Assembly (NCBI RefSeq): GCF_007748075.1
Contig: NZ_CP036280.1
Span: forward strand, 2,910,001-2,942,000
DNA: 32,000 nucleotides
Direction of reading: 5' to 3'
From: Mucisphaera calidilacus
GTDB taxonomy: Bacteria > Planctomycetota > Phycisphaerae > Phycisphaerales > Phycisphaeraceae
Shown: one piece after another, positions 17,768 through 32,000 of the stretch
Layout of the letters: every line of letters starts with the position of its first letter
How positions within the stretch are numbered: the stretch's first letter is position 1
Notes under the pieces: model-generated
The model's database searches: none
The model's input: the letters and a program-made list of their open reading frames with translations, nothing else
What the model was told of the DNA's origin: nothing
Translations under genes and position numbers: made by a program

Positions 17768-17809
17768 CCCGCATCTCAAAACACTTCCGCGGGATCCCGG
17801 CACAGCACG

Positions 17810-18223: not shown

Positions 18224-18224
18224 G

Positions 18225-20618
18225 ATGAACCTCCGGCTTCCGTGGGCAACCGACGACCTCCCCTCCGAGCCACACGCGCGACTCGAAACCCTCGAATCGC
18301 GCCTCCTCCTCGCAGCAGACGGCTTCGACGAGCAGGCGCTACGCGACGCCATCCTCGATGACAACCCCCACGCCGTCATCGCCATCGACCACGACACGAC
18401 CACCATCACCATCGCCTCCGAACAGGACCTCAACCTCGATCAGGAATTCTCCGACCTTTATCCCGAAACCTACGACCTCGTCATCACCACCGAAGGCAAG
18501 CTCAATCTGTCTTACGTGGACGCCCCAAACAGCTCAGGAAGCCTTGAAGGCAGGACCCTTGTCGACCCCAACAATGTAGTTACGGCATCCACCTCCGGCT
18601 CCGCGTCCAGCGGCGCCGTCACCCTCACCAGCACCGCCAGCACCGCCCGACCCCAACGACAATACAACACCAGCCAATACTTCCCCGATATCAGCCTCGA
18701 CAACGTCGAAACCAACTGGATTCAAGACGAGGCCGTCAGCATCCGACTCCCCCTCACCATCAACAGCACCAGCAGCCATCCCATCAAACCCGGCTCCACC
18801 TGCAACCTCACCGTCGCACTCGTACCCGTCGATGACAGCAGCAACGCGCAGGTCATCCACACCGAGAACGACCTGCGACTCAATGGCCTCCGCGCCGGCG
18901 GACAAAAAAGATTCAACATCAACCTTACCCTCCCTGAATACGTCGACCCCGGCGAATATCACATCAGACTGTCGGCCCGGCCCGAGTTTTACGCCACCGC
19001 CCGCGTCCACACCACCTCAGGCACCATCACCGTCGAGGACGGCCAACGCGAACTCGCCGCCCACATCCTGCACACCAGGCTTCCCCAGACCGTCGTCGCC
19101 CAACAACGCCTCCGCGGAAGCGTCACCGCCACCATCCGCAACGAAGGCAACCTCAACACCGATCCCCGCACCCCACACACCTTCACACTCCACGCCGTGT
19201 CCGCCGACGGCACCGCTCCGATCGTTCTCGCTGAGCGGACACAGCGGCTCGGCCGCCTGCAGCCCGACGCCACACGCAAGGTCCACTTCCGCGTCAACAC
19301 CACCCTCGTCGATACCGGCCTCTACACCCTCGCTGTCACCATCGACACCAACAGCATCAGCGCCGCTCAAACCAACAACGCAGCACCCGCCCCGAACAAC
19401 GACGCCGCTAGCGCCGCAGCACAAACCCTCGAAGTCGAACCCGCCTACCACGACCTCTCCCTCGAAATCAACGAAGCACGGCTCCGCCTGCCCCAGCAGA
19501 TTCTCGAAACCCAGACCCCACGCATCCGCATCCCCATCCAAGTCACGCTCGAAGGCAACACACGCTTCGCACGCGGCGCCACCTACAGCGTCGAAACCTA
19601 CATCAACACACCCGAAGGCGAAGTCGTCCTCGCCGCACGTGACAACCTCCGAGCCGATCGACTCCGGCCCGGACGCGCCCAGCGAATCAACCTCCTCGCG
19701 ACCCTCCCCGACAACCTCGACGCAGGCACCCACGACCTCAAGGTCCGTCTCGCCGCCAGCCCCCAGACCCACGAAACAAACGCGAACGACAACGCCAGCG
19801 ACAACAACGCCGACGCCATCCCCCTCAACATCCAGCAACGCGTCGACGACCTGGGCATCGAGATCCACAGCACACGAATCAACTACCGATCACTCCCATC
19901 GAGCCAGGAACCCCAGGCACTGGCCCACGCTACAGGTCGAGCCGTCGTCAACATCACCCATCAGGGCAACGCCAGACTCAGCCGAACCGATCAGGCCACC
20001 GTCGAACTCGTCGCCATCAGCAATGACGGACAATCCGTCACGTCTCTAGGCGAAACAACCGTCAACCTCCGCAACATGAAGCCCGGCTCCACCAAACGCG
20101 TCACCATCCGCACCCAAGTGATCGTTGTCGACACGCCCGAGGGATACTCCTATGGCGTACGCCTCCTGACCAGGCAGACCGACAGCAACCCCGCCAACAA
20201 TGTCGATCTTCAGAGCAACGGCCTCGTCATCAGCTCCCTCGCCACAACTGACGACAACGAGAACAGCGACTGGGCACCCGACCACGCCCTGGCAGGCGAG
20301 TACTACTTCAACCTCGCAACAGGCAGCAACGTCTACAACCAGGACGAACGCTACGAGATGTTCTTCAGCCAGAACCTTGGCGGCCAACGCGGAACCTACA
20401 CCGTCACCACCGACCAGGCACAGACCACCGTCGGCTCGGGTATCTACCTCTACGACAAGACCGACGACGACCAGGCCACCTTCACGCTCTTTGATTACCT
20501 CGGCGGCCTGGGCGGACTCGTGCTTGACTACACCGCACCCGGCCTCTTCGACTACGAACTCGAACTCAAGGGCACCGAGTGGTCTTCCTGGAAACGTAAA
20601 CAACTCCCCGTCATCTAG
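18225..20618 (+). CDS. large extracellular protein with about four CARDB/Ig-like repeats
   Basis: The N-terminus carries RLETLESRLLLAADG rather than a classical signal peptide. Repeated modules include GSVTATIRNEGNLNT...LYTLAVTID, GRAVVNITHQGNARLS...YSYGVRLL and LPDNLDAGTHDLKVRLAA. It ends with TAG. Confidence 0.6.
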   Translation: MNLRLPWATDDLPSEPHARLETLESRLLLAADGFDEQALRDAILDDNPHAVIAIDHDTTTITIASEQDLNLDQEFSDLYPETYDLVITTEGKLNLSYVDAPNSSGSLEGRTLVDPNNVVTASTSGSASSGAVTLTSTASTARPQRQYNTSQYFPDISLDNVETNWIQDEAVSIRLPLTINSTSSHPIKPGSTCNLTVALVPVDDSSNAQVIHTENDLRLNGLRAGGQKRFNINLTLPEYVDPGEYHIRLSARPEFYATARVHTTSGTITVEDGQRELAAHILHTRLPQTVVAQQRLRGSVTATIRNEGNLNTDPRTPHTFTLHAVSADGTAPIVLAERTQRLGRLQPDATRKVHFRVNTTLVDTGLYTLAVTIDTNSISAAQTNNAAPAPNNDAASAAAQTLEVEPAYHDLSLEINEARLRLPQQILETQTPRIRIPIQVTLEGNTRFARGATYSVETYINTPEGEVVLAARDNLRADRLRPGRAQRINLLATLPDNLDAGTHDLKVRLAASPQTHETNANDNASDNNADAIPLNIQQRVDDLGIEIHSTRINYRSLPSSQEPQALAHATGRAVVNITHQGNARLSRTDQATVELVAISNDGQSVTSLGETTVNLRNMKPGSTKRVTIRTQVIVVDTPEGYSYGVRLLTRQTDSNPANNVDLQSNGLVISSLATTDDNENSDWAPDHALAGEYYFNLATGSNVYNQDERYEMFFSQNLGGQRGTYTVTTDQAQTTVGSGIYLYDKTDDDQATFTLFDYLGGLGGLVLDYTAPGLFDYELELKGTEWSSWKRKQLPVI

Positions 20619-20726
20619 CCATCCCGACACAACAACAACTCAAACAACAACCACGCAAATAACAATTCGAAGAACAACAACAGCCAGGACAACACCTCCG
20701 ACTCTATTTCTTTCGGCTCGGCCTCA

Positions 20727-21161
20727 ATGCACATCGTCACTTCGTCCGGAAACCTTAACGCTGTCAATGTGATCGACTTGATAAGTCCCACGTTCTCAGA
20801 CGCCACGAACCTTGAGGTATTCCAACCCTGGGACTGGGACGACATCGAGTTCATACCTATCCAGACCGATCCTGAGATCAAGGATGAGACCATCTCCCAT
20901 GACCTTGGCTCTATCTCCGGAGGTTCGGCAGTTTTCGACAACCGCCCGAGCCCGACGTTCGAAACATATCAACCCACAGACCTCATCTTCGACCCACAGT
21001 ATCTCATCGAATCCGGGCAGATCCTGAGCATCACAGAACCCCTGTCATTGACGATCGCCGACGGCGAAACCATTTTCATCGAGCCCACAGGACCCCTCGC
21101 CTGCGATCCATTCGAAGAACTCGGCCTCAGTGGACACTTAATAATCACCACCATCGACTGA
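20727..21161 (+). CDS. hypothetical acidic protein (possibly the detached C-terminal part of the preceding gene)
   Basis: 144-aa ORF, about 50% GC. It is in the same frame as 18225-20618, and no stop other than TAG 20616-20618 lies between them. Confidence 0.5.
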   Translation: MHIVTSSGNLNAVNVIDLISPTFSDATNLEVFQPWDWDDIEFIPIQTDPEIKDETISHDLGSISGGSAVFDNRPSPTFETYQPTDLIFDPQYLIESGQILSITEPLSLTIADGETIFIEPTGPLACDPFEELGLSGHLIITTID

Positions 21162-21388
21162 GCCAACCCCACCAGAATCTCACCAATCTCTCCAACACCA
21201 CCGCCCTGTCGTCCCGAAAGGCCCGCGCTTTCCGAGCCATCTTCCCTCGGCCCTCGTCCGCGCTGTAAACCCCTCCATCACCGCGACGCACCCCTCAGCG
21301 ACCTCATGCTCGCCACCACAAGCCCGACCCAACCCTGACACCCCGCCCGGAAAACCCTTCTCCAAACACACACCGCGCGGTACACTTC

Positions 21389-21398
21389 GGGATATCCC
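21389..21398. promoter_or_regulatory. 10-bp palindrome GGGATATCCC in the 5' leader of the PEP-CTERM gene
   Basis: Identical to 18214-18223. It lies 21 nt upstream of ATG 21420 and precedes GGAGAAGAGAA. Confidence 0.3.
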
Positions 21399-21419
21399 TT
21401 AACCCCGGAGAAGAGAACC

Positions 21420-22541
21420 ATGCACCGCACACTCGCAGCTGGCGTCACTCTTGCAGCCCTCCTCGCTCCCTGCGCCAACGCCGACACACGCTTCTGGCAC
21501 ATCCAGAACACGGGTTACTACCACGACGGCAACGATGGCACCGCACTCGCCCTACGCAACGGCAGCGTCTGGCCGACCATCTTCACCGACGACGGCAGAG
21601 CACTCGCCCAGTTCGCCACCGGCTGGACCGATCTTGTCCCGTTCAACGTCTCACTCTTCCCACGCACCTACGACATGCCCCTCCGCGCCACCAGCTCCGC
21701 CGACCACCGGGTCACCGTCACCACCGATGACCAGTCCTCAGGATCAGGCTACCTCTCAAACAACGGCGTCACCCTCAGCCGCACCGGCTTCACACCCCTG
21801 CCCGACCACACCCTTGCCGCCGACTACGGGCCCGATGGCAACCTCTACCTGCTCCTCAAAAACCCCGACACGTCTGACCGCTACGTCCCCGGACTCCCCG
21901 ACCCGGAGTACAACGACTACCACGACATCGCCGTCTCTCCCTTTGGCGAAGTCGGACTGATCGACGACCGATACGGCTTCGCTGAATACAGCCCGCTCCG
22001 AGGCGACTGGCAGTACGTCGACTTCTACGACCTGCCCGATCCCGACAACCGCTTCAATAACTTCACCGCCATATCTCTCGAGTACGACGCCCTCGGCAGA
22101 CCCCACGTCCTCGGCGAACTCGACAACCAGGCCGCCGCGCTCGACTACCACCCCGCCACCGGATGGACGCTCACAGACTTCACCCAAGACCTCACGCTCA
22201 ACGGCACCTTCGACAAAGCCTACGACCTCGCCGCCGACTCCCTCGGCAACGTCGGAACCGCGCTCTATCTCGACGGCTTCGAGTCAACCGCCAACGCCCT
22301 GTACTACCTCCACCACGACGGCGACGAATGGTCCGCACACCTCGTCGAAAACGACACCAACCTCGACATCCGCTACGACGCCCAGTTCGGCATCGCCTAC
22401 GACCACGAAGACCTGCCCGTCATCTCCTACGTCACCAACGGCACCATCCACCTCGCCTACGACCCCATCATCGTTCCCGAACCAGCAGCGCTCACACTCC
22501 TCAGCCTGACCGCACTCACCCTCGCACGACGAACACGCTGA
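21420..22541 (+). CDS. PEP-CTERM-anchored secreted protein
   Basis: Signal peptide MHRTLAAGVTLAALLAPCANA. C-terminus IVPEPAALTLLSLTALTLARRTR, which is PEP motif, TM helix and basic tail. It is paralogous to the next gene (ATGW/PTGW segment). Confidence 0.75.
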   Translation: MHRTLAAGVTLAALLAPCANADTRFWHIQNTGYYHDGNDGTALALRNGSVWPTIFTDDGRALAQFATGWTDLVPFNVSLFPRTYDMPLRATSSADHRVTVTTDDQSSGSGYLSNNGVTLSRTGFTPLPDHTLAADYGPDGNLYLLLKNPDTSDRYVPGLPDPEYNDYHDIAVSPFGEVGLIDDRYGFAEYSPLRGDWQYVDFYDLPDPDNRFNNFTAISLEYDALGRPHVLGELDNQAAALDYHPATGWTLTDFTQDLTLNGTFDKAYDLAADSLGNVGTALYLDGFESTANALYYLHHDGDEWSAHLVENDTNLDIRYDAQFGIAYDHEDLPVISYVTNGTIHLAYDPIIVPEPAALTLLSLTALTLARRTR

Positions 22542-22554
22542 CCGGGAACACGCC

Positions 22555-24093
22555 ATGCACAACACACGCCACGCGATCCTGATCACCCTCGCCTGCTGCG
22601 CCGCCACCCACGCGCAATGGAACGCCCACGTCGCCGGCATCCCCCAACCCCAGGTCGGCGGCACACCCTTCCCGCGCTCCGCCGACGTCGCCGTCGACCC
22701 CACCAACGGTAGCGTCTGGATCGCTACCGACGACGGCGGCGCCTCCGGAACTTACGGGCCCGCAACCCTCACACGCTTCACCAACAACACCTTCACACCC
22801 CACACGCTCCCGGACCCCGTCTTCGGTATCGAACTCGACATCGACGACTACGGCACACCCACCTACGTCGCCCGCGCACCCGGAAACTTCGTCACCTCAG
22901 GCGTCTACATCGAACCCGCCGACGTCATCGAACAGACCCAACAGCCCATCCTCCAGACCCCCGCCTTCCCCGTCATCGACTACGCCGTGGACCCCCAGGG
23001 CATCCCCGCACTCGTCAACTTCAACCAGAGCGGCTTCAACTTCACCCGGTACGACGTCGCCAGCAACGACTGGTCAACCACACCCCACTTGTTCACCAAC
23101 CCCGAACTCCAACCCTCCTTCCGATCCCCGCCCGCCTTCGACTTCGACCCCCAGGGACGCCCCGTCGTCGCCTACCTCTCCGTCCAGAACACCGCCGTTG
23201 TCCTCCGACACGAACCGCTCCACGGCTGGCGACCCATCTCGTCCAACAAGCCCGCCAACAACCTCTACGGCATCAGCCTCGCCTTCTACGCCGACGGATC
23301 GCCCCTCTTCGCCTACGGCAACCAGCAGGGCCAGATCGTCGTCACCTCACTCGACGAATACCTCATCCCCACCACACAGATCGTCGACCAGGCCACCACA
23401 CGCCTCCTCCCCGACGCCCTCGCCGTCAACCCCGCCACCGACAGCCCCAGCATCGCCTACACCGCCGCGCCCTCACCCTTCAGCGACCTCATGCTCGCCA
23501 CCCTCCAACCCACCGGCTGGAGCACCACCCAACTCCCCTTCTCCGCCGGACGCGCCAACCTCGCCTTCAACGACGAGGGCACCCCCTACATCGGCGCCCT
23601 GATCACACGCCCCGCCGGACAGGACTTCGTCCAGAGCTACGCCGTCATCACCAACGACCCCGACCTCCACCTCCCAGGCGACTTCAACCACGACGGCATC
23701 TACTCCGCCGACGACCTCGACCACTACGCCAACAACCCCACCGACCTCGAAACCTACGACCTCGACCGCAACGGCGAGATCGACCCCAACGACCACCTCG
23801 TCTGGCTACGCATCTACAACCTCACCAGCCCAGGCGACATCAATCTCGACGGCAGCGTCAACCTCCTCGACCTCTCCATACTCGCCGCCAACTTCGACCA
23901 GCCCGGCTCCTACGCCCAAGGCGACCTCAACCTCGACGCCTCCATCAACCTCCTCGACCTCTCCATCCTCGCCAGCAACTTCACCGCCAACACCATCCCG
24001 ACCCCCGCCACCGCATCACTCATGACCCTCGCACTCCTCGCACTCCTCGCACTCCACCGCAATCAACCAAAACAACCCGAACCCCAACCCTGA
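22555..24093 (+). CDS. secreted protein with dockerin-like Ca-binding repeats and a PEP-CTERM-like anchor
   Basis: Signal peptide ILITLACCAATHA. EF-hand/dockerin loops DFNHDGIYSADDL, DLDRNGEIDPND, GDINLDGSVNLLDLSILAANF and GDLNLDASINLLDLSILASNF. C-terminal IPTPATASLMTLALLALLALHR. Confidence 0.75.
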   Translation: MHNTRHAILITLACCAATHAQWNAHVAGIPQPQVGGTPFPRSADVAVDPTNGSVWIATDDGGASGTYGPATLTRFTNNTFTPHTLPDPVFGIELDIDDYGTPTYVARAPGNFVTSGVYIEPADVIEQTQQPILQTPAFPVIDYAVDPQGIPALVNFNQSGFNFTRYDVASNDWSTTPHLFTNPELQPSFRSPPAFDFDPQGRPVVAYLSVQNTAVVLRHEPLHGWRPISSNKPANNLYGISLAFYADGSPLFAYGNQQGQIVVTSLDEYLIPTTQIVDQATTRLLPDALAVNPATDSPSIAYTAAPSPFSDLMLATLQPTGWSTTQLPFSAGRANLAFNDEGTPYIGALITRPAGQDFVQSYAVITNDPDLHLPGDFNHDGIYSADDLDHYANNPTDLETYDLDRNGEIDPNDHLVWLRIYNLTSPGDINLDGSVNLLDLSILAANFDQPGSYAQGDLNLDASINLLDLSILASNFTANTIPTPATASLMTLALLALLALHRNQPKQPEPQP

Positions 24094-24124
24094 ACAACAC
24101 CTCAGGCCGAATCAAAAACCCCGG

Positions 24125-24388
24125 GTGGCACACCCCTACGAGCCCCAAGCGCGAGCTTGGGGTGCCACACTCCAGACCGAGTCTGCGAGGGCTACCCACA
24201 GATCCCAGTGTTTTCTAACCCCCTACGAGCCCCAAGCGCAAGCTTGGGGTGCCACACCCATACGAGCCCTATCCGCAAGCTTGGGGTGCCACACTGCAAC
24301 CGAGCCTCCGAGGTTGCTGTGTGTAATCCACAGATCCTAGTGTTTTCTAAACCCTACGAGCCCCAAGCGCGAGCTTGGTGTGCCACAC
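24125..24388. repeat. REP-like array: four copies of a ~35-nt hairpin unit plus two copies of a 22-nt box
   Basis: The unit is CTACGAGCCCCAAGC-GCGA/GCAA-GCTTGGGGTGCCACAC. Hairpin stems (excluding the flanks) are at 24143-24162 and 24230-24249, a degenerate whole copy spans 24261-24294, and a fourth stem with one mismatch is at 24361-24380. The box CACAGATCC(C/T)AGTGTTTTCTAA is at 24197-24218 and 24329-24350. Confidence 0.75.
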
Positions 24389-24457
24389 CGCATCCGACTC
24401 CCTGAGGCTGCTGTCTGTGTCTCCCCTCACCCCCCAATATTTATCCAAATTTTCACA

Positions 24458-24485
24458 TTGACACCGCCCGCCCCCACCATATCCT
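24458..24485 (+). promoter_or_regulatory. candidate sigma-70-type promoter (TTGACA-N16-TATCCT)
   Basis: TTGACA at 24458-24463 and TATCCT at 24480-24485, about 90 nt upstream of ATG 24578. AAGGAGA lies before the ATG. Confidence 0.3.
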
Positions 24486-24577
24486 GACACGCATGTCCGA
24501 TGTCACGCTGAATTCATAAACCATCTTCCACGGGGACCCATCAACCCGCCGGGACACAGCAACACAAGGAGATAGCC

Positions 24578-25405
24578 ATGAGAAGCCTCACGCTTACAGC
24601 ACTCGCCGCAGCAGCAATCGCTACCGCCGCTTCCGCCGATCCATACAACGACACCTACCCCATGATGAGTAGCGAAGAAGCCGCCACCACGACCTTCAAC
24701 CTCCGCCCTCAGGTCGGAATCACCGACTGGACCTGGCAAGGCACAACGCTGATCGAATCATGGCTTGTTTACGGGGCCTACGACAACGAACCTGCCACGC
24801 CACCCAACAACGGCATCAGAAACTTCTACACCTGGCCAGGTGCAGAGCCGTACCGCTCTGCCAGCAGTTCCAACGGCAGACACTTCGCCGATTCCTCTCC
24901 CTCCAATATCTACTTCGAACATACCCATGCGATCTGGGCAGATATCTATAACAGCGAATCTCACGATTGGGACAGCAGTGTTCGGATTGGTCACGACACC
25001 AGCTGGTACTTCGACACGGACGACCCCGAGCACCCCGAGCCAACCCTCGAAGAGCACACGCACCAGGCCTTCCAGGTCATCACCCCGACAACCGCGTCGC
25101 AATGGACACTGATCGATGACCTCTCCTTCGCGCTCAACAACGAGAGCGGCCAGATCATGTTCGAGATACGCCTGAGCGATCATTACCATGCATCAGTCTT
25201 CGGATTTAACCAGACGGGCAGCCCGAATGACTCTCAGCACGCAACGCCGAACCCCGGCGACAGCCTGATCATGACATGGGATACCGAGTACACGGGCGTA
25301 TCCAATGAGTATCAGGCTGCCTTTGTGCAGGCATATTACAGCGTCCCAGAGCCTTCAGCCATCATGCTGTGTCTTGCTCTCTCAGGAATCCTTGCCCGCC
25401 AGTAG
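24578..25405 (+). CDS. PEP-CTERM-anchored secreted protein
   Basis: Signal peptide MRSLTLTALAAAAIATAASA. C-terminal VPEPSAIMLCLALSGILARQ. Confidence 0.7.
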   Translation: MRSLTLTALAAAAIATAASADPYNDTYPMMSSEEAATTTFNLRPQVGITDWTWQGTTLIESWLVYGAYDNEPATPPNNGIRNFYTWPGAEPYRSASSSNGRHFADSSPSNIYFEHTHAIWADIYNSESHDWDSSVRIGHDTSWYFDTDDPEHPEPTLEEHTHQAFQVITPTTASQWTLIDDLSFALNNESGQIMFEIRLSDHYHASVFGFNQTGSPNDSQHATPNPGDSLIMTWDTEYTGVSNEYQAAFVQAYYSVPEPSAIMLCLALSGILARQ

Positions 25406-25520
25406 TCATCACGACAGACCGTCATCGGCAAACGCCTAAACCGAACAGTTACCAGATGTCCGAGCACGTAGTTGTGAAGGCACATAGATATCTCTTGCCC
25501 CACCAGAGGAGAACGCAGCA

Positions 25521-27730
25521 ATGAAGTCCAGAAACCGCAGCCATATCAACCCGCTACTGCCATCACTATGCCTTGCGACTGCAGCAATGACGATGGCACT
25601 TACGCCACAGCGCGCAACTGCCACCGATCTTATCCTTGGAGATATTCCTCCGTTCGAGACTCTAATGTTGTTTGGGGGATTGGATTATTCCTACAACAAT
25701 GGCGTCATAGGCGAATCGTACTTCGCGGCACTATTCGTATCGGGAGACAATACAAGTGCATCATTCGCAGGTAATTTTGAAGTAGGAGTACATGAGTCGG
25801 GATTGGTACTTGTCGATGACGGGGCAGTCCTGCGACTAGCATCGGGAATGGCGATTGGAGCCGATGTATCGGGGTATACGAGCAGAGCATCCGCTTCGGG
25901 CAGCGGCACAAAGTTTGTGGTAGCGATTGGCGAGACGTACGTCGGCAAGAATGCAGGCGGCAAGCTGGCCATCGAGGACCACGTCGCAATGCACGCACGA
26001 AATCTCTATATCGGTCACGCCAGCGGCAGTCACGGAGAAATGGTAGTCAAGTCATCAGCTACAGTATCCGCAGTTGGCACCAATAATAATTATATCTACG
26101 CGGCTCCTCCGGCACGGGAGAACTGACCGTCAATTCGGGTGCCTCGCTGATCGCAACACGCTTATATGTCGGGGATAAGGCGACCGGCGATGGTGAAGCC
26201 ACCGTATCGGGCTAGAATTCGTCAATCACCGTGGAAGGCTTCACAAGAGTCGGTGTTCAAGGCAATGCGAAGCTCTCAATCCTCGACGGCGCTACCGTTA
26301 TCAATGAATCAATTATGCATGATATCGTTGTTGGATCAGGGCCAGGTTCGAACGGCGTTGTCGTTGTATCGGGCAGTGTATATGACCCGAGCACTGGCGG
26401 ATACGCGGATTCAACTCTGGCCAGCAATCGCCATATCTATCTTGGTACCAGCAGTTCCACCGCACACATGTCGGTAGAAAACGGAGCCAATGTCTCCGCA
26501 TCTCGTCTCTATGTCCGTCCGCAGAGCACGCTCTCAGGTGCGGGCGGCACCGTGCTCGGCAGAACAGAAGTCTCAGGCAAGATCGATCCGGGTGCCTATG
26601 CCATCGAGGATGATGCCGTTGTAAGCACGACGGGCGAATTGAGTATCGCAGGTGACTGCATCATGGAAGCCGGCAGCGCTTTGCGTATCGATATCGCTTC
26701 CTCAGGCACCGATAGCATCAACGTAACCCCGAAAGCCAGCATGTCTGGGGACCTCACACTATCTAAGAGTAATCCCATTCTGGATATTAACTTCCCCAAC
26801 CAGTACGTGCCCGCCCCGGGGCAGAAATACGAGGTTGCCAGTTATACAGGCGATCTCACAGGCGTCTTCTCCAATGCACCGCTTCCCGGCGTCCCGATCG
26901 ACACGACGCACAATAATGAAATCGCCTTGATGATCGAGTACGACACGGACAACAAAGATATTAATCTGACCACACACTACATCGGCGACGCCAACATGGA
27001 TAACGCCGTGAACCTGCTTGACCTCTCAACGCTGGCAAGCAACTTTGATACGACCCCCGCTACATGGTCGATGGGCAACTTCAATACGGACAATACAGTC
27101 GATCTACTCGACCTCAGTGCTCTGGCCACGAACTTCGGTAAAGGCCAGACATCCCAATCACAGGCACCTGAGTCCTTCTCCTCCATCGGCTCGCCCGCGA
27201 CACTCAGCCTTGATGGCGACCTCACCGTCTCCGACGACGGCGGCATCACCACACCCGACCTCACCGGATACACCACCTACACACTCACCGCCGCCGCACT
27301 CACCGACAGCATCGACGCTCTCGAAATCCTGATCGAATCCGATGACCTGAATCAGGAATATCTCGGCTACACCATCTTCTCCAACAACAACGTCTTCTTG
27401 CAGCAAGCCGGCATCAACCCCTTACGTGACTCACAACTGCTCTTCGCCGAAGGCCTGTTGTCCGTCCAGGCCGATGAATCAGACACACTGCTGACTGCCG
27501 CCTTCGCCGGCTTCACACCCTTCACTACACGCGACATCGCCCAGATCGTCATCCCCGACGACGCCACCGCGACTTACGAGATCCAGGCCGTCATCGACGA
27601 CGAACTCTACATCGTCACCGGCACCCTCGGCACAGCAGCACCCCTGACTCTCATCCCCATCCCCGAACCCTCCTCACTCGCGGTTCTCGCCCTCACCGGC
27701 CTAGCCCTCGTCCGTCGTCGCGCCGCCTGA
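25521..27730 (+). pseudogene. disrupted adhesin-like protein gene (beta-helix repeats + dockerin-like repeats + PEP-CTERM)
   Basis: Frame 0 (25521-26126) and frame 2 (26090-27730) together encode one continuous repeat pattern: ...SSATVSAVGTNNNYIYA/GSSGTGELTVNSGASLIATRLYVGDKATGDGEATVSG*NSSITVEGFTRVGVQGNAKLSILDGATV. This needs a 1-nt frameshift near 26099-26102 and contains an in-frame TAG at 26213-26215. The 3' part encodes GDANMDNAVNLLDLSTLASNF, GNFNTDNTVDLLDLSALATNF and IPIPEPSSLAVLALTGLALVRRRAA. Confidence 0.65.
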
Positions 27731-27761
27731 CAGCACCCACACCACCAAGACTGACCCCGCC

Positions 27762-27788
27762 GGGCCGCCTCCAAAGGCGGCCCTTTTT
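27762..27788 (+). terminator. Rho-independent terminator
   Basis: GGGCCGCC-TCCAAA-GGCGGCCC is an 8-bp all-Watson-Crick GC stem. TTTTT follows, 32 nt after the stop at 27730. Confidence 0.7.
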
Positions 27789-27904
27789 CATGCCTCAACG
27801 CTGCCATCATCACTCCATCCCAAAACCGATACTTTCTTTCACCCCCACCCCCTGATTCCGGGGGTCGCGCGCACAAGGACGGTAATTGTGCGCACGTCGT
27901 GACC

Positions 27905-27995
27905 AAAAACAGGCCCTTTTTGGACCAAAACGCTCCAAAACGGACGAAAACGAACCCAAAACGCTCGAAAACGACCCGAAACGAACCCGAAAAAG
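27905..27995. repeat. helically phased A-tract / degenerate 10-11-bp tandem repeat (C[CG]AAAACGnn)
   Basis: A-tracts start at 27905, 27927, 27937, 27947, 27958, 27968, 27979 and 27990. Spacings from 27927 onward are 10, 10, 11, 10, 11 and 11 nt. AAAACG recurs five times, plus AAACG and AAAAAG. Confidence 0.75.
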
Positions 27996-28186
27996 TGTAA
28001 ATTCCTGCAAAGTCGTCAGACTGTGCGCGCCTCGCCCCTCAAACCACACCCCCACCGACGAACTCCCGCCACCCAACACCCACCCCGTGCCCCGTCCGGT
28101 AAGCACGGCCTGTTCAACGCACCCGAACACCACCAAGCCAACCCTAACCCCTTAACTCCGTTATAGGGCGGCTTTTGCAACCGCAC

Positions 28187-28224
28187 TTGACGTTCGGTTT
28201 GGATTTGGGTAACGTATACCGAAC
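28187..28224 (+). promoter_or_regulatory. candidate promoter (TTGACG-N17-TAACGT) overlapped by inverted repeat GTTCGGT-N19-ACCGAAC
   Basis: TTGACG at 28187-28192 and TAACGT at 28210-28215. The inverted-repeat arms are 28192-28198 and 28218-28224. The site is about 120 nt upstream of the ORF that precedes lexA. Confidence 0.3.
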
Positions 28225-28343
28225 AGATTGGCCGATAGAAGTTCAAGACCCGTTACACCCCGCGACGAAAAGAGACTCAGCAACAGCCGGATACCCCAAC
28301 ATATTGGGATCAACCCCCCGGCAAACGCTAGATGGGATAACAC

Positions 28344-28937
28344 ATGACCTCACCCGTACTCATGCTCGGACCCGGCGGCGACTACACCACCGCCTACGAA
28401 GCCCGCCCGGGCGGCCGTCTCGCACGCTCCCAGGCCAACGCCGACGCCAATCAGGGCGACAGCCAGCAACCCGGCTACCAGAGACAGCCCAAACGCCAGC
28501 CACACGACCGCTTCGAGCCTTCTAACCAACTGATCAACAAGCGATTAGCGCATGCCGCGCACCAGCCCGACTTCGAGGAGATCACCCTCCTCGCCGCCGC
28601 CTCGGCATGGCTCACCGAACAGATGAACCGCGTCGCCGAGTCCAGCGCCCTGCTCCAACGCCTCCGCGGCCTGCTCGCTCACGACAGCCTCACCCATCAC
28701 ACCCGTTCCCTGACCGTGATCCCGGAGATCGATCATGAATCTTACGCCCAAGCAGCTACACATCCTCAGTCGTATCAGAGACATACGTCTGGCACGCGGC
28801 TATTCGCCGACGATGCAGGAACTCGCCGACGAGCTCGGCGTCTCCAAGGTCACCGTTTTCGAGCACGTCGAAGCGCTCATCAAGAAGGGGGCCTTGAGGC
28901 GGCAGCCGAACAAGGCGCGCTCTTTGGAGCTGTGTGA
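28344..28937 (+). CDS. hypothetical protein upstream of and overlapping lexA
   Basis: The 197-aa ORF shows strong C-ending codon bias only from 28344 to about 28735. The last 203 nt overlap lexA in another frame and lack that bias. No family recognised, and the true 3' end is uncertain. Confidence 0.45.
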   Translation: MTSPVLMLGPGGDYTTAYEARPGGRLARSQANADANQGDSQQPGYQRQPKRQPHDRFEPSNQLINKRLAHAAHQPDFEEITLLAAASAWLTEQMNRVAESSALLQRLRGLLAHDSLTHHTRSLTVIPEIDHESYAQAATHPQSYQRHTSGTRLFADDAGTRRRARRLQGHRFRARRSAHQEGGLEAAAEQGALFGAV

Positions 28938-29355
28938 GGAAGTCGACCTGCCCGACGAGACGACCGGCCTCAAGCTCCCGCTGGTCGGCACGATCGCCGC
29001 CGGCTCGCCCATCGAGGCGGTCGAGCAACGCGAGCATCTCGATCTGGAGTCGATGTTTACGCCTCCCGGCTCCGCGGGCAACACCTTTGTCCTGCAGGTG
29101 CGTGGCGACTCGATGATCGACGAGCACATCGCCGAGGGCGACTACGTCATCTGCGAGAAGCGCAACGCGGCGCGGTCGGGCCAGACCGTCGTGGCGCTGC
29201 TCGACTCGGGCGAAGCGACGCTCAAGAAGCTCTACCACGAGTCGGGCAACAAGATCCGGCTGCAGCCCGCGAACGACAAGTACGAGCCGATCATCGTCGA
29301 GGCGGGGCGGGTGCAGATCCAGGGGGTCGCCATCGGCGTCGTGCGGTCTTACTGA
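28735..29355 (+). CDS. lexA: LexA repressor (SOS regulator, S24 peptidase)
   Basis: Winged HTH LTPKQLHILSRIRD..GYSPTMQELADELGVSKVTVFEHVEALIKKGALRR. Ala-Gly cleavage site VGTIAAGSPIEA. Ser/Lys dyad context VRGDSMID and ATLKKL. An in-frame TGA lies 18 nt upstream of the ATG, and GGAG is the RBS. Confidence 0.9.
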   Translation: MNLTPKQLHILSRIRDIRLARGYSPTMQELADELGVSKVTVFEHVEALIKKGALRRQPNKARSLELCEEVDLPDETTGLKLPLVGTIAAGSPIEAVEQREHLDLESMFTPPGSAGNTFVLQVRGDSMIDEHIAEGDYVICEKRNAARSGQTVVALLDSGEATLKKLYHESGNKIRLQPANDKYEPIIVEAGRVQIQGVAIGVVRSY

Positions 29356-29405
29356 GCCGGCCCTGTTGAAACGCCGGGGGCGGGGTTCATTTATGATGCA
29401 GGGCT

Positions 29406-30413
29406 ATGGAAGACAGGCCGATCGGTTTGCTGGCGGGGGGCGGGCGGCTGCCCATCATCGAGGCGGAGGGGATCCGCGCGATGGGGCGGAAGGTGGCCTG
29501 CGTGGGGTTTACGGGGCAGTATGACCCGGCGTTGCCTGAGCTGTGCGATTACTTCGAGACGGCAGGGATCGTTCGGATCAACCGGTGGCTGAAGCTGATG
29601 AAGCGGTGGGACGTGGAGCAGGCGGTCATGGTGGGGTACGTGCGTAAGACGCGTATGTATCAGCCGTTGCGGATCGTCCAGAACCTGCCGGACAGCAGGG
29701 CGATCCGTCTCTGGTATCGTGTGTTGCGTAATGACAAGCGTTCGCAGCTGATGCTGCGGGTGCTGGCGGACGAGTTGCACGATAACGGAGTCGACCTGAT
29801 CGACACCACAGCCTTCATCAAGCGTCATATTGCCGAACTGGGCGTGATGACCAGGACCCAGCCGACCGCGGAGCAGCAGGCGGATATTGATTTCGCTGCG
29901 CCGATTCTGGCGCGGATGAACGATCTGGATATCGGTCAGGCGTTGGCGATCAAGGAGCGTGACGTGATCGCGGTGGAGGCGATCGAGGGCACGGACCGGA
30001 TGATCAAGCGGGCGGGGATCCTGTGCAAGGCGGGCGGGTGGACGCTGATCAAGGGGACGAAGCCGACGAAGGACCTGCGGTTCGACGTCCCGACGGTGGG
30101 GGTCTCGACGATCAACAACATGAAGTCTTCGAAGGCGGCGTGCCTGGTGATCACGGCGGGGAACGTGATCATGATCGACAAGGAGGACGTGCTGGCGGCG
30201 GCGGACGCGGCGGGGATCTGCATTGTGGGGATCGAGCCGGTGGAGGGGACGGAGCTGCCGATGGAGACGCTGGCGAAGTACGCCGAGTCGATGGACGAGC
30301 CGATCGAGGCGTTGCAGGGGAGTCTGGTGAAGCCTGTGGGGGAGGAGGCTGATGCCGAGGCCGAGGAGGGGGAGCGTTTTGAGTCAGGCGGATCGGCGCC
30401 GGCTCAGGGGTAG
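29406..30413 (+). CDS. lpxI: UDP-2,3-diacylglucosamine diphosphatase LpxI (DUF1009) with an acidic C-terminal tail
   Basis: IGLLAGGGRLP at the N-terminus. LDIGQALAIKERDVIAVEAIEGTDRMIKRAG and RFDVPTVGVSTI parallel Caulobacter LpxI. Codons are G-ending. Confidence 0.85.
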   Translation: MEDRPIGLLAGGGRLPIIEAEGIRAMGRKVACVGFTGQYDPALPELCDYFETAGIVRINRWLKLMKRWDVEQAVMVGYVRKTRMYQPLRIVQNLPDSRAIRLWYRVLRNDKRSQLMLRVLADELHDNGVDLIDTTAFIKRHIAELGVMTRTQPTAEQQADIDFAAPILARMNDLDIGQALAIKERDVIAVEAIEGTDRMIKRAGILCKAGGWTLIKGTKPTKDLRFDVPTVGVSTINNMKSSKAACLVITAGNVIMIDKEDVLAAADAAGICIVGIEPVEGTELPMETLAKYAESMDEPIEALQGSLVKPVGEEADAEAEEGERFESGGSAPAQG

Positions 30414-32000
30414 GAGCGTCAGGAGTATCGTGACCGCGGCGGGTTCGGGGATGGCGGTGTTGCCGAAGTGGCTGGCGAGGATGGAGAGGTCGAGGAGGTC
30501 GACGGTGTTGTCGCCGTTGAAGTCGCCCTGGGTGAAGCCAAAGACTCCGGGCAGGCCGAAGTTGGCGGCAAGGATGGAGAGGTCGTTCATGTCGACGCTG
30601 CCGTCGAGGTTGGCGTCGGCTGGGAGGAGGGTTGCGCTGAAATAGGTGACTTCGCCTGTGGCCATCAGGCTGGAGGTGTCGAAGGTGCCGGGTCCGTTGT
30701 AGAGGATGGTGTCGAAGGCTCCGGTGATGTCGGCGTTGGTCCAGTCGAAGAGCTGGTAGGTGGTGATCTGGAGACTTTGCAGGTCGAGGCCATCGTCGAA
30801 TTCGAGGAGGAGGGTTCCGGCGAGGGCGACGGGGGTGTCGGGGTCGGCGAACTGGATGATGGAGCCCCACTGGTTGTCTTCGAAGACGAGGCGGAGGGTG
30901 GCGGCGGGGTCGATGGTGAGTTCCTGCTCGATGGTGATGGGGATGGCGGGTTCGGATTCATCCAGGGGGTTGTCGTCCCAGATGCGTAGGGTTTCGCTGC
31001 TTTGCAGGATCAGGCCTTTGACGCGGCCATCGGGGTGGATGGCGTTGCGGACGCCGGCCAGGCGTTGACTCATCCTGTTTCCTGATGTCCTGTCTATGTA
31101 GTAATGACTTCTGCGCAGATCCGAAGCCGTGAAGTCGGTGTTATGCAGGTTTGCATGGTTAAATACGACTGACTGCAGGTTTAGATTGCTCAGGTCCCAG
31201 TCGGTCAGGTCGTTGTAGCCCAAGTCGATCCCGGCGAGATTTTTGTTCTTGTAGCTGGCGGTGCTGTAGAGCTGGCCTGCGGTGAATCCGGAATCGGTGG
31301 TTCTATAGAAGTCCGCTCCGGTGATGAGGGCGTCGGACAGGTCGGTGTTGGTGAGGTTGGCGTAGTCGAGATTCGCGTCGGTGAGGTTGGCGTTGTTCAG
31401 GTCGGTGTTGGTGAGGTTGGCGTAGTCCAAATCTGTGTCGGTGAGGTTCTGGCCGGCGAGGTTCCATCCGGTCAGGTCGTTGGAGTACAATTTGATCCCG
31501 GTGAGGTTCTTGTTCTTGTAGCTGGCGGTGCTGTAGAGCTGGGTGGCGGTGAATCCGGAATCGGTGGTTGAGCCGAAATTTGCCTCGGTGATGATGGCGT
31601 CGGACAGGTCGGTGTTGGTGAGGGTGGCGTTGTATAAATATGCGTCGGTGAGGTTGGCGTTGTTCAGGTCGGTGTTGGTGAGGTTCTGGCCGGCGAGGTT
31701 CCATCCGGTCAAGTCGTTGTAGCCCAAGTCGATCCCGGTGAGGTTCTTGTTCTTGTAGCTGGCGGTGCTGTAGAGCTGGGCTGCGGTGAAACCGGAATCG
31801 GTGGTTCTATAGAAGTCCGCTCCGGTGATGAGGGCGTCGGACAGGTCGGTGTTGGCCAGGTTGGCGAGGCCGAAGTAGGCGTCGGTCAGGTTCTGGCCGG
31901 CGAGGTTCCAGGCCGTGAGATCGTTGTACCGCAAGTCGATCCCGGCGAGATTTTTGTTCTTGTAGCTGGCGGTGCTGTAGAGCTGGCCTGCGGTGAATCC
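30384..32000 (-). CDS. pentapeptide-repeat surface protein with dockerin-like repeats and PEP-CTERM anchor (N-terminus beyond the right edge)
   Basis: The frame is open to position 32000; the track M at 31934 is a TTG inside repeat ...GIDLRYNDL. Modules are repeated: ADFYRTTDSGFTA.QLYSTASYKNKNL.GIDLGYNDLTGWNLAGQNLT.TDL. The C-terminus has DANLDGSVDMNDLSILAANF, GDFNGDNTVDLLDLSILASHF and IPEPAAVTILLTLLPLSRRRSA. Confidence 0.8.
   Translation of the reverse strand, partial: GFTAGQLYSTASYKNKNLAGIDLRYNDLTAWNLAGQNLTDAYFGLANLANTDLSDALITGADFYRTTDSGFTAAQLYSTASYKNKNLTGIDLGYNDLTGWNLAGQNLTNTDLNNANLTDAYLYNATLTNTDLSDAIITEANFGSTTDSGFTATQLYSTASYKNKNLTGIKLYSNDLTGWNLAGQNLTDTDLDYANLTNTDLNNANLTDANLDYANLTNTDLSDALITGADFYRTTDSGFTAGQLYSTASYKNKNLAGIDLGYNDLTDWDLSNLNLQSVVFNHANLHNTDFTASDLRRSHYYIDRTSGNRMSQRLAGVRNAIHPDGRVKGLILQSSETLRIWDDNPLDESEPAIPITIEQELTIDPAATLRLVFEDNQWGSIIQFADPDTPVALAGTLLLEFDDGLDLQSLQITTYQLFDWTNADITGAFDTILYNGPGTFDTSSLMATGEVTYFSATLLPADANLDGSVDMNDLSILAANFGLPGVFGFTQGDFNGDNTVDLLDLSILASHFGNTAIPEPAAVTILLTLLPLSRRRSA

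What the first reader, a model, noticed from the sequence alone, without database searches (positions are those of the whole stretch)
28750..29350. Abrupt flip of strand composition and codon usage across lexA: candidate replication origin, or an inversion or assembly junction
Left of about 28.75 kb the + strand is C/A-rich. Examples: 28561-28620 has 27 C vs 14 G, and 28681-28740 has 23 C vs 11 G. lexA itself is close to balanced: 28921-28980 has 19 C and 19 G, and 29041-29100 has 19 C and 18 G. From about 29.28 kb the + strand is G/T-rich: 29281-29340 has 17 C vs 25 G, and 30481-30540 has 12 C vs 25 G. Codons flip in step. Plus-strand genes change from GCC/CTC/ACC/GAA (for example 8462-8908) to GCG/CTG/ACG/GAG (lpxI). 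The minus-strand pentapeptide gene right of the flip uses C-ending codons, whereas minus-strand genes on the left use G/T-ending ones. Under the usual rule that leading strands are G+T-rich, a negative-to-positive skew crossing read left to right is the signature of a replication origin. A terminus would give the opposite sign. The picture is not clean, though. There is no dnaA, dnaN or parAB in the window and no convincing DnaA-box cluster. Most genes on the left are on the + strand, so they would be head-on to a fork leaving an origin here. Either reading is unusual.
Basis: partly seen in the sequence, partly recalled or inferred. Interest (0 to 1): 0.8.

Follow-up and report, generated by a model that had tools for sequence, protein, structure and literature searches.

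The report
Sawtooth strand skew: many origin-like sites
The strand-composition flip at lexA is real, but it is one of about 35 sharp, evenly spaced flips in this planctomycete's chromosome, many marked by a short repeat element, a pattern best explained by DNA replication starting at dozens of sites, which has never been shown for a bacterium.

Summary
Fourfold-site GC skew on the + strand is -0.7 to -0.97 in genes left of lexA, -0.09 in lexA and +0.69 in lpxI and the pentapeptide gene, whatever the gene's strand. It is not the chromosome's single origin: the global cumulative-skew minimum is at 617,845, and the window's flip is at 2,938,881. It is not an inversion or assembly junction either, because sORF-lexA-lpxI is an ancestral collinear block.

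The 3.49-Mb genome (probably Mucisphaera calidilacus) has 39 negative-to-positive switches, 31 of them strong. They are sharp (about 1 kb) and evenly spaced (about 112 kb, CV 0.49). Positive-to-negative transitions are gradual (about 13 kb). This sawtooth recurs in three related genomes and is absent from a more distant one.

A 215-bp repeat element (window 27,807-28,039) has inverted boxes, hairpins and seven A-tract repeats phased at 10.5 bp. It has 17 loci; 15 lie within 3 kb of a switch (P about 3e-16), with the switch always 0.4-1.7 kb downstream. ZRK32 has a different 23-bp iteron-like array with the same geometry.

Best explanation (about 0.6): many fixed bidirectional replication initiation zones with dispersed termination. 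The evidence is compositional only.

The parts
1..28040 (.). Right-hand end of a 106.5-kb domain (genome 2,832,501-2,939,000) in which the + strand is C- and A-rich.
   Evidence: Fourfold-site skew on the + strand is -0.73 to -0.97 in genes of both orientations.
24500..27000 (.). Low-GC island (0.53-0.56) with skew near 0, holding genes of no known family. Probably recently acquired DNA that has not yet taken on the local skew.
   Evidence: composition; no Pfam family for 24578-25405 or 25521-26126.
26231..27730 (+). Gene for a protein ending in a PEP-CTERM sorting signal. Its 3' end lies just upstream of the repeat element.
   Evidence: PEP-CTERM, E = 0.00095, below the curated cut-off; C-terminal motif IPEPSSLAVLALTGLALVRRRAA. 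Several other element copies also follow a PEP-CTERM gene.
27762..27788 (+). Terminator-like GC hairpin (GGGCCGCC / GGCGGCCC) followed by a run of T.
   Evidence: Read directly from the sequence.
27807..28039 (+). Conserved repeat element of about 215 bp: 17 loci in this genome, none in 143 related genomes. It marks the C-rich edge of the switch zone.
   Evidence: BLAST, 10 copies at 76-99% identity. Iterated nhmmer, 17 loci. 15 of 17 lie within 3 kb of a called switch against 1.15 expected, P = 3e-16. The switch always lies downstream of the array. Absent from the family, from plasmids and phages and from Rfam and tRNA scans.
27867..27875 (+). Left box GCGCGCACA. It is the inverted repeat of the right box, and it overlaps the palindrome GCGCACAA-N9-TTGTGCGC at 27,869-27,893.
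   Evidence: Sequence and alignment. This 9-mer occurs 40 times in the genome, 22 of them within 3 kb of a switch against 2.7 expected.
27903..27923 (+). Hairpin CCAAAAA-N7-TTTTTGG.
   Evidence: predicted in both the MFE and the centroid fold.
27925..27993 (+). Array of seven direct repeats (consensus CSAAAACGNN). A-tract starts are spaced 10, 10, 11, 10, 11 and 11 bp apart, i.e. in phase with the DNA helix.
   Evidence: Tandem Repeats Finder and spacing. About 11 such arrays exist in the genome, 10 of them at switches.
28022..28030 (+). Right box TGTGCGCGC, the end of the conserved element.
28040..28343 (.). Non-coding, still C-rich spacer. It holds an inverted repeat GTTCGGT-N19-ACCGAAC at 28,192-28,224, a possible operator of the sORF-lexA operon.
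   Evidence: Sequence. Not conserved among element copies.
28344..28734 (+). Small ORF (130 aa) of no known family. It is the last unit with strong negative skew (fourfold G/C 10/52, -0.68).
   Evidence: Adjacency to lexA is shared with L001 and L010.
28735..29355 (+). lexA. It is the zone of zero asymmetry where polarity switches (fourfold G/C 47/56), balanced along its whole length.
   Evidence: Pfam Peptidase_S24 and LexA_DNA_bind. Counts per 20 codons. Cumulative-skew minimum at 28,881 or 29,154.
29406..30413 (+). lpxI, the first gene with full positive skew (fourfold G/C 127/23, +0.69).
   Evidence: Pfam LpxI_N and LpxI_C. lexA followed by lpxI is ancestral. The lpxI orthologue in the congener G001 has the opposite skew, -0.27.
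30384..32000 (-). Pentapeptide-repeat protein gene, which runs on beyond the window. Its coding strand is C-rich, so the + strand is G-rich (+0.69).
29400..32000 (.). Start of a 52-kb domain (genome 2,939,001-2,991,000) in which the + strand is G- and T-rich.

Best explanation
The flip marks one of about 31-39 fixed sites on this chromosome from which a strand-asymmetric process, most simply replication forks, leaves in both directions. Termination is spread over the middle of each roughly 100-kb interval.

At this site the repeat element (27,807-28,039) sits at the C-rich edge. Its inverted boxes, hairpins and helically phased A-tract repeats look like a protein-binding, bent-DNA module. The roughly 0.6-kb stretch without asymmetry (lexA) is then the zone between the start points of the two diverging leading strands.

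Shown: the sawtooth itself; its independence from gene orientation, synteny breaks and assembly; and the tight, polar association with the element. Inferred: that the process is chromosome replication; that the element is a functional cis-acting part of the site rather than a repeat that homes to such sites; and that a still unidentified protein binds it.
For: (1) Sign and base pattern are those of diverging forks. The G-rich strand is also T-rich: fourfold AT skew is -0.47 to -0.50 for genes coding on the domain's G-rich strand and +0.21 to +0.24 for those on the C-rich strand, whichever way the gene points.
(2) Negative-to-positive switches are steps (tanh half-width median 1.1 kb). Positive-to-negative transitions are ramps (median 13.3 kb). 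The two sets separate completely (U = 0, P = 2.8e-7). This is the shape of human skew N-domains, which are read as origins with a gradient of fork polarity between them (PMC3320577).
(3) The 31 strong switches are spaced evenly: mean 112 kb, CV 0.49 against 0.96 for random placement, P < 2e-4.
(4) The same sawtooth is present in an independent congeneric long-read MAG, in Poriferisphaera WC338 and, more densely (about one switch per 36 kb), in ZRK32. It is absent from a more distant Phycisphaeraceae genome.
(5) The switches are marked by cis elements. In G000, 15 of 17 element loci lie at switches (P = 3e-16), with the switch 0.4-1.7 kb downstream. In ZRK32, 74 units of a different 23-bp repeat all lie beside switches. 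Their orientation fits the rule at all of about 21 array loci (P about 5e-7). Several switches are flanked by inverted arrays.
(6) Polarity calibration: in WC338 a major switch of the same sign lies on the canonical dnaA gene. Skew is negative before it, and mean skew is positive for at least 700 kb after it.
(7) It is not a product of rearrangement. The local gene block is ancestral. Within a 70-kb block collinear between the two Mucisphaera species the skew pattern is in anti-phase, so switch sites move in situ.
Against: All the evidence is compositional. It records mutation history, not replication itself.
- No bacterium is known to use more than one origin on a chromosome (PMC4403523).
- There is no AT-rich unwinding region and no E. 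coli-type DnaA box at the switches. Neither dnaA paralogue of this genome lies at a switch.
- No special initiator was found: no Rep_3, no Orc1/Cdc6, no true MCM. The two DnaA paralogues also occur in genomes without the sawtooth.
- Genes are not co-oriented with the inferred forks: 49% of coding bases near the switches lie on the G-rich strand; tRNA genes split 24 to 14, P = 0.14.
- Only about half of the switches carry a recognisable element.
- The element is absent from congeners, yet its copies are up to 99% identical. It could therefore be a young repeat that inserts at such sites rather than their cause.
- One copy (1,909,617-1,909,824) has no switch.
- No shared repeat was detected at the four or five sampled switches of G001 and WC338.
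Confidence: 0.6

Rival explanations
1. A site-anchored, bidirectional, strand-asymmetric process other than normal chromosome duplication. One candidate is recombination- or R-loop-dependent DNA synthesis. Another is outward strand-displacement synthesis launched from paired polar nick sites in the arrays. The chromosome would still be duplicated from one oriC.
For: The arrays are polar, and in ZRK32 they often flank the switch as inverted pairs, as two outward-facing start sites would. WC338 and ZRK32 show a non-zero mean skew beneath the sawtooth, which may reflect one dominant origin with local events superimposed. There is no gene co-orientation and no extra initiator.
Against: In this genome the sawtooth is symmetric (about -0.22 to +0.24 on average), and fourfold sites reach +/-0.7 to 0.97. 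The local process therefore sets essentially all of the asymmetry and leaves no detectable single-origin component. Resection from a fixed double-strand break predicts the opposite sign; that is an inference from which strand would be exposed.
Confidence: 0.17
2. The sharp switches are fixed replication termini, i.e. fork traps made of polar protein-bound arrays. Initiation would be dispersed over the broad ramp zones. This requires that in this lineage the leading strand is C-rich.
For: The ZRK32 units are 23 bp long and polar, and they occur as inverted groups flanking the switch. That geometry resembles the Ter sites of the E. coli fork trap (general knowledge). The lack of AT-rich DNA or DnaA boxes at the switches is also expected for termini.
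Against: The sign is opposite to every calibrated bacterial terminus. The G- and T-rich strand fits deamination of the exposed lagging-strand template. In WC338 a switch of this same sign lies on dnaA, with matching replichore-scale offsets. No Tus or RTP homologue was found. The switch begins at the array and ends 0.5-3 kb beyond it, not at the array's face.
Confidence: 0.08
3. A chromosome with a single origin was scrambled by many inversions, for example by recombination between the repeat elements. The window's flip would be one inversion endpoint.
For: Synteny between the two Mucisphaera genomes is fragmented. Repeats sit near the switches. Skew surveys usually ascribe multi-peaked skew to inversions or misassembly (PMC8941118; bioRxiv 10.1101/808410).
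Against: Inversions give equally sharp boundaries of both signs, whereas here only one sign is sharp. The spacing is regular. The sORF-lexA-lpxI block is ancestral. A collinear 70-kb block shows anti-phase skew in the two species, which inversion of the block cannot produce. Four genomes show the same shape.
Confidence: 0.04
4. This is the chromosome's single oriC, or else a mis-join in the assembly. These were the first reader's two other readings.
For: The local sign and sharpness of the flip.
Against: The global extremes lie elsewhere and there are 38 equivalent sites. There is no dnaA, dnaN, DnaA-box cluster or AT-rich region here. The genome is one closed contig, and the junction lies inside conserved gene order.
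Confidence: 0.01

Closest known systems
Skew N-domains of mammalian genomes, and skew jumps at yeast origins
   Same: Sharp upward skew jumps separated by a gradual, near-linear decline through zero, independent of gene orientation. The pattern is read as fixed or preferred origins with a gradient of fork polarity between them (PMC3320577; PMC3459929, listed).
   Different: Here it occurs in a 3.5-Mb bacterial chromosome. Domains are about 100 kb (about 36 kb in ZRK32) rather than about 1 Mb. The asymmetry is an order of magnitude stronger, up to +/-0.97 at fourfold sites. Short sequence-defined repeat arrays sit at the jumps.
Multi-origin chromosomes of archaea (Sulfolobus, haloarchaea), with ORB repeats around an unwinding zone and an adjacent orc1/cdc6 gene
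   Same: A prokaryotic circular chromosome with several origin-like sites. Inverted protein-binding repeats flank the switch zone, as seen in ZRK32. Origins may be gained and lost over evolutionary time.
   Different: There are about 35-140 sites rather than 1-4. There is no Orc1/Cdc6 gene in the genome or next to the sites. There is no AT-rich zone. The organism is a bacterium with two DnaA paralogues.
Iteron-type origins of plasmids, phages and Vibrio chromosome 2
   Same: Arrays of short direct repeats in helical phase, with neighbouring inverted repeats. The repeat sequence is species-specific, as expected if it co-evolves with its binding protein.
   Different: No rep gene is adjacent and no Rep_3 gene is in the genome. 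The arrays are scattered over the chromosome beside ordinary housekeeping genes. There is no match in plasmid or phage collections.
Bacterial oriC
   Same: A negative-to-positive GC-skew and TA-skew switch. In WC338 one such switch lies on dnaA.
   Different: It is not unique. There is no DnaA-box cluster, no AT-rich element and no dnaA or dnaN neighbour, and it is not the global minimum.
Tus-Ter and RTP-Ter replication fork traps
   Same: Short polar sites (23 bp in ZRK32) arranged as inverted groups around a switch in fork polarity.
   Different: The skew sign is that of divergence, not convergence. There is no Tus or RTP.

Membership tests
Bacterial oriC (DnaA-dependent chromosomal origin) | Located at the global minimum of the cumulative GC skew of the replicon | tested here: not met
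   The global minimum is at 617,845. The window's flip, at 2,938,881, is one of 39 local minima.
Bacterial oriC (DnaA-dependent chromosomal origin) | Cluster of DnaA boxes | tested here: not met
   TTATCCACA occurs 5 times in the genome and never within 1.5 kb of a switch; close variants give the same result, apart from one TTGTCCACA at one switch. The lineage's own DnaA box is unknown, so only the E. coli-type consensus was tested.
Bacterial oriC (DnaA-dependent chromosomal origin) | AT-rich unwinding element, and dnaA, dnaN or another replication gene as neighbour | tested here: not met
   AT content of the 300 bp around the flip is 0.37, against a genome value of 0.36. The dnaA paralogues lie at about 0.4 kb and 3,276 kb. 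The neighbours here are a PEP-CTERM protein gene, a small ORF, lexA and lpxI.
Bacterial oriC (DnaA-dependent chromosomal origin) | Supports autonomous replication and shows initiation bubbles | not testable with these tools
   This needs a plasmid-maintenance assay or 2D gels.
Skew N-domain border (origin in a multi-origin chromosome) | Sharp upward jump, with downward transitions gradual | tested here: met
   Half-width 1.1 kb against 13.3 kb, U = 0, P = 2.8e-7.
Skew N-domain border (origin in a multi-origin chromosome) | Asymmetry follows the DNA strand, not the direction of transcription | tested here: met
   Fourfold-site skew by domain and gene strand and per gene in the window.
Skew N-domain border (origin in a multi-origin chromosome) | Recurs along the chromosome at regular intervals and in related genomes | tested here: met
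   31 strong switches, CV 0.49. Also seen in G001, G002 and G003.
Skew N-domain border (origin in a multi-origin chromosome) | Replication shown to initiate at the jumps | not testable with these tools
   No sequencing run was listed for this genome.
Iteron-type origin | Array of short direct repeats in helical phase | tested here: met
   Seven repeats spaced 10-11 bp apart at 27,925-27,993. 23-bp units in arrays of 1-16 in ZRK32.
Iteron-type origin | Initiator (rep) gene next to the iterons | tested here: not met
   No Rep3_N anywhere in five genomes. The neighbouring genes are unrelated housekeeping genes.
Archaeal-type origin (ORB plus Orc1/Cdc6) | orc1/cdc6 gene present and adjacent | tested here: not met
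   No Cdc6_C in five genomes. The MCM matches are weak AAA+ cross-hits that also appear in all 14 control genomes.
Inversion or assembly junction | Break of ancestral gene order at the flip | tested here: not met
   lexA is followed by lpxI in the same orientation in L005, L007, L011, L020, L021, L030 and L035, among others. The small ORF is followed by lexA in L001 and L010.
Inversion or assembly junction | Boundaries of both signs equally sharp | tested here: not met
Ter-type fork trap | Polar sites in inverted groups around the switch | tested here: inconclusive
   This geometry is present in ZRK32. In this genome the arrays lie on one side only.
Ter-type fork trap | Skew sign of converging forks, and a Tus or RTP protein | tested here: not met
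   The sign is that of divergence. No Tus or RTP was found.
Miniature inverted-repeat mobile element | Terminal inverted repeats and several near-identical copies | tested here: met
   9-bp inverted boxes, and copies at 87-99% identity.
Miniature inverted-repeat mobile element | Target-site duplication and a partner transposase | not tested
   The flanks show no obvious duplication in the alignment. No systematic search was made.

The most novel reading that the evidence does not exclude
A clade of free-living planctomycetes (Mucisphaera and Poriferisphaera) duplicates its circular chromosome from dozens to more than a hundred sequence-marked origins. There would be about 35 in this genome and about 140 in ZRK32, if the two 400-kb samples are representative. 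Termination would be stochastic and origins would turn over quickly in evolution, giving a replication programme like that of eukaryotes in a bacterium. The 215-bp element in the window would be one such origin module, bound by an unknown factor.
Probability: 0.5. Interest if true: 0.95.

Novelty: new variant of a known kind. Interest (0 to 1): 0.9.

Why it matters
One origin per chromosome is treated as a defining difference between bacteria and both archaea and eukaryotes. A 2015 review states that no bacterium is known to use two functional origins on one chromosome (PMC4403523).

These genomes carry the strongest and cleanest multi-origin-type skew signature I know of in any prokaryote. 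Candidate cis elements are already mapped to the base. Two of the organisms are in culture (Pan265 and ZRK32). The question can therefore be tested at once by marker-frequency or fork-direction sequencing.

If the multi-origin reading is right, it opens several questions: how origin number is set, how a DnaA-type machinery (or something else) fires many sites, and why origins turn over so fast.

If it is wrong, an unknown site-anchored process is still rewriting up to about 90% of synonymous G/C choices in these genomes. That matters for codon-usage, gene-finding and binning methods, and for any tool that uses GC skew to check assemblies or to estimate growth rates.

Tried and rejected
- Sequencing runs: a search for runs holding window 26,000-32,000 listed none. 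No depth or read-pair test could be made.
- Rfam and tRNA scans of the element region found nothing.
- The element has no match in the plasmid or phage collections. It has none in 143 genomes of the family, nor in the 400-kb samples of G001 and G003.
- PEP-CTERM genes as the marker of the switches: only a modest enrichment, 8 gene ends within 1 kb against 1.7 expected, with 74 such genes genome-wide. Treated as secondary.
- Unbiased 8-mer enrichment at the 17 strong switches without an element gave no convincing shared motif. Relaxed profile searches gave only weak, though mostly correctly oriented, array-like matches at about 6-8 of them.
- No shared repeat was found at the four or five sampled switches of G001 or WC338, and the ZRK32 unit is absent there.
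- A second DnaA paralogue as the special initiator: rejected as a discriminator, because genomes without the sawtooth also have two.
- Rep_3, Cdc6_C, MCM, Tus and RTP were not found, or appeared only as noise.
- Co-orientation of genes, tRNA genes, rRNA, the S10 operon and rpoB with the inferred forks gave no significant signal.
- A shared gene in the segments between inverted arrays in ZRK32: the genes there are unrelated housekeeping genes.
- A first likelihood change-point estimate for the window (29,299) was biased by the zero-skew island in its left flank. It was replaced by the cumulative minima and the per-gene counts.
Full report
OBSERVATION. In 1-kb windows the + strand has GC skew of -0.2 to -0.46 from position 1 to about 28.5 kb. 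The exception is a low-GC island at 24.5-27 kb, where skew is near 0. Skew crosses zero at 28.5-29.5 kb and is +0.29 to +0.36 from there on. At fourfold-degenerate sites the bias is extreme and belongs to the strand, not to the gene. Expressed on the + strand it is -0.73 to -0.97 for nine genes of both orientations to the left. It is -0.68 for the small ORF at 28,344-28,734 and -0.09 for lexA. It is +0.69 for lpxI (+ strand) and +0.69 for the pentapeptide gene (- strand). lexA is balanced along its entire length. The switch is therefore a zone of about 0.6 kb without asymmetry, lying between two fully biased neighbours.

WHOLE REPLICON. The window is G000:C1:2,910,001-2,942,000 of a single 3,486,541-bp contig with 63.9% G+C. 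Size and G+C match Mucisphaera calidilacus Pan265 (PMC8882080). The closest named relative in the genome collection is a Mucisphaera sp. MAG. The organism's name is my inference.

The cumulative skew has no single V shape. Its minimum is at 617,845 and its maximum at 1,984,558. A two-state segmentation gives 79 alternating domains with a median length of 40 kb and a maximum of 106 kb. The window's flip (genome 2,938,881) is one of 39 negative-to-positive switches, of which 31 have a step above 0.25. Genome-wide, fourfold-site GC skew is -0.53 to -0.55 for genes whose coding strand is the domain's C-rich strand, and +0.32 to +0.38 for the others. Genes are split about evenly between the two strands.

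THE SHAPE IS A SAWTOOTH. Averaged over 21 well-flanked upward and 16 downward transitions, the upward ones are steps (-0.19 to +0.15 within 1 kb). The downward ones are ramps spread over about +/-15-20 kb. Fitted tanh half-widths have medians of 1.1 kb and 13.3 kb with no overlap between the two sets (Mann-Whitney U = 0, P = 2.8e-7). The strong upward switches are evenly spaced: mean 112 kb, CV 0.49 against 0.96 for random placement, P < 2e-4. Random inversions would give sharp boundaries of both signs and roughly exponential spacing, so they do not explain this.

NOT AN INVERSION OR ASSEMBLY JUNCTION. lexA followed by lpxI in the same orientation is found in many Phycisphaeraceae, including genomes with weak skew. 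The small ORF followed by lexA is shared with two relatives. The flip therefore lies inside an old collinear block.

The sawtooth is also present in three independently assembled relatives:
- the congeneric long-read MAG G001, with switches at 767,418, 842,925, 920,801 and 1,030,385;
- Poriferisphaera WC338 (G003);
- ZRK32 (G002), where it is densest, with 22 switches in 800 kb and skew swinging from +0.5 to -0.65.
A more distant Phycisphaeraceae genome (G005) lacks it.

SWITCH SITES TURN OVER IN PLACE. Between the two Mucisphaera genomes, which share about 75% nucleotide identity, the skew of orthologous segments correlates only weakly (r = 0.38). Of 72 strongly skewed pairs, 26 have opposite sign. 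Within one 70-kb collinear block the whole pattern is in anti-phase. lpxI itself is +0.25 here and -0.27 in G001. In WC338 a switch lies 1.4 kb downstream of its lexA. In G001 the strong negative skew ends at lexA, but the switch proper is 16 kb further on, beyond inserted DNA. The asymmetry is therefore continuously regenerated around sites that move on the time scale of speciation.

A REPEAT ELEMENT MARKS THE SWITCHES. Comparing the switch regions with each other revealed a conserved element of about 215 bp, at 27,807-28,039 in the window. It consists of:
- inverted 9-bp boxes, GCGCGCACA at 27,867-27,875 and TGTGCGCGC at 28,022-28,030;
- a palindrome, GCGCACAA-N9-TTGTGCGC;
- a hairpin, CCAAAAA-N7-TTTTTGG;
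- seven direct repeats (CSAAAACGNN) whose A-tracts start 10, 10, 11, 10, 11 and 11 bp apart, i.e. in phase with the helix.

Iterated profile searches find 17 loci. Fifteen are within 3 kb of a called switch, against 1.15 expected (P = 3e-16). One lies at an uncalled half-step (3,295,646; -0.33 to -0.01), and one has no step (1,909,617). When every copy is oriented alike, skew is negative up to the array. It turns positive 0.5-1.5 kb downstream in 10 of the 11 clearest copies. The 9-mer box alone occurs 40 times in the genome, 22 of them within 3 kb of a switch against 2.7 expected. Two switches without a full element carry degenerate versions.

The element matches nothing in Rfam, in the plasmid or phage collections, or in 143 genomes of the family, including two congeners.

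A DIFFERENT ELEMENT WITH THE SAME GEOMETRY IN ZRK32. There the switch regions share a 23-bp unit (ACGATACGCTTTAGTGAAACAAC). It occurs in arrays of 1-16 copies, often with a GC hairpin. In two 400-kb samples, all 74 units lie beside switches; a reversed-sequence control of the first sample gave 3 hits. I count 20 of about 23 array loci within 4 kb of a switch, where chance gives 0.22 per locus (binomial about 6e-11, calculated by hand). Forward units are always to the left of the switch and reverse units always to the right. Several switches are bracketed by inverted arrays 2-4.5 kb apart. Skew is most negative (-0.5) right up to the array and rises over the next 0.5-3 kb. The bracketed segments encode unrelated housekeeping genes, so they are not a mobile unit with its own replicase.

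INTERPRETATION. The simplest reading is the one used for mammalian skew N-domains. Upward jumps are places where fork polarity inverts, i.e. origins. The gradual decline reflects a changing mix of fork directions, because termination is dispersed (PMC3320577).

The polarity is the classical one: the G-rich strand is also T-rich. In WC338 a switch of the same sign lies on the canonical dnaA gene. Skew is negative before it, and mean skew is positive for at least 700 kb after it. The zero-asymmetry zone over lexA fits the stretch between the start points of the two diverging leading strands; that is inference.

I put this reading at about 0.6. Against it:
- There are no direct replication data.
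- There is no AT-rich region and no DnaA-box cluster at the switches.
- No candidate initiator was found.
- Genes are not co-oriented with the inferred forks. That is less surprising if fork directions change as fast as implies.
- Only about half of the switches have a recognisable element.
- The element is young or homogenised: copies are up to 99% identical and it is absent from congeners. It may therefore home to such sites rather than create them.

RIVALS.
- A site-anchored synthesis process that is not normal chromosome duplication (0.17).
- Polar fork traps with an inverted skew rule (0.08). This is contradicted by the sign, by the dnaA calibration and by the absence of Tus and RTP.
- Scrambling by inversions (0.04).
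- A single oriC or a mis-join (0.01).

KNOWN OR NEW. Searches of the held literature found no description of this pattern. I searched on Phycisphaerae, Mucisphaera and Poriferisphaera together with skew or origins, on multi-origin bacteria, and on sawtooth skew. The species papers do not mention it. A review states that no bacterium is known to use two functional origins on one chromosome (PMC4403523).

I rate it a new variant of a known kind. The kind is multi-origin replication with N-domain-type skew. The variant is its occurrence in a bacterium, with sequence-defined polar repeat arrays. I rate it of very high interest because cultured strains make it directly testable.

Noticed in passing
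window 24,500-27,700: A low-GC (0.53-0.56) island with skew near 0, immediately left of the element. It holds two ORFs of no known family and a PEP-CTERM protein gene. It looks like recently acquired DNA that has not yet taken on the local strand bias. In G001, too, foreign-looking DNA is inserted right after lexA.
   Followed up: partly
window 28,192-28,224: An inverted repeat, GTTCGGT-N19-ACCGAAC, enclosing a near-palindrome GGTAACGTATACC, about 120 bp upstream of the small ORF that precedes lexA. It is a candidate SOS (LexA) operator for a sORF-lexA operon.
   Followed up: no
genome 2,495,019-2,496,528 (outside the window): The only 16S rRNA gene lies on the locally G-rich strand, exactly at the end of a positive-skew domain (downward transition at 2,496,585). 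It is as if the rRNA operon marked a preferred termination point.
   Followed up: no
genome about 394-867 and 3,276,233-3,276,715; also G001-G008: Every Phycisphaeraceae genome examined has two DnaA-family paralogues, scoring about 230 and about 170 bits against Bac_DnaA, whether or not it has the sawtooth.
   Followed up: partly
G001:C2:909,350-909,478 (in L001): A partial duplicate of the 3' end of lexA (residues 164-206, 74% identity) lies 4.4 kb downstream of the intact lexA, across a stretch of neutral skew and low GC. It looks like the footprint of an insertion into or beside lexA.
   Followed up: no
genome 1,909,617-1,909,824 and 3,295,646-3,295,730: One near-perfect element copy (94% identity) has no skew step. 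One degenerate copy has only a half-step (-0.33 to -0.01). These may be a new or inactive site and a weak site respectively.
   Followed up: partly
genome-wide; window 26,231-27,730: Genes ending in a PEP-CTERM signal end next to switches more often than chance (8 within 1 kb against 1.7 expected). Several element copies, and one ZRK32 array, directly follow such a gene.
   Followed up: partly
window 8,462-8,908 and 4,153-6,228: Synonymous codon choice is almost fully dictated by the strand bias: 1 G against 66 C, and 12 G against 343 C, at fourfold sites. Codon-usage or expression inferences in this genome would be dominated by a gene's position and strand.
   Followed up: no
window 30,384-32,000 (ORF continues to about 33,824): A very long minus-strand pentapeptide-repeat ORF (more than 1,100 codons), with weak dockerin-like and PEP-CTERM-like C-terminal similarity. 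It overlaps the 3' end of lpxI by 30 bp.
   Followed up: no
G002:C1:2,430,205-2,431,276 (L170): The largest ZRK32 array has 16 units of the 23-bp repeat spread over about 1.1 kb, with a single inverted unit on the other side of the switch.
   Followed up: no
genome 1,175,612-1,175,924: A tRNA-Glu gene lies directly beside one element copy.
   Followed up: no
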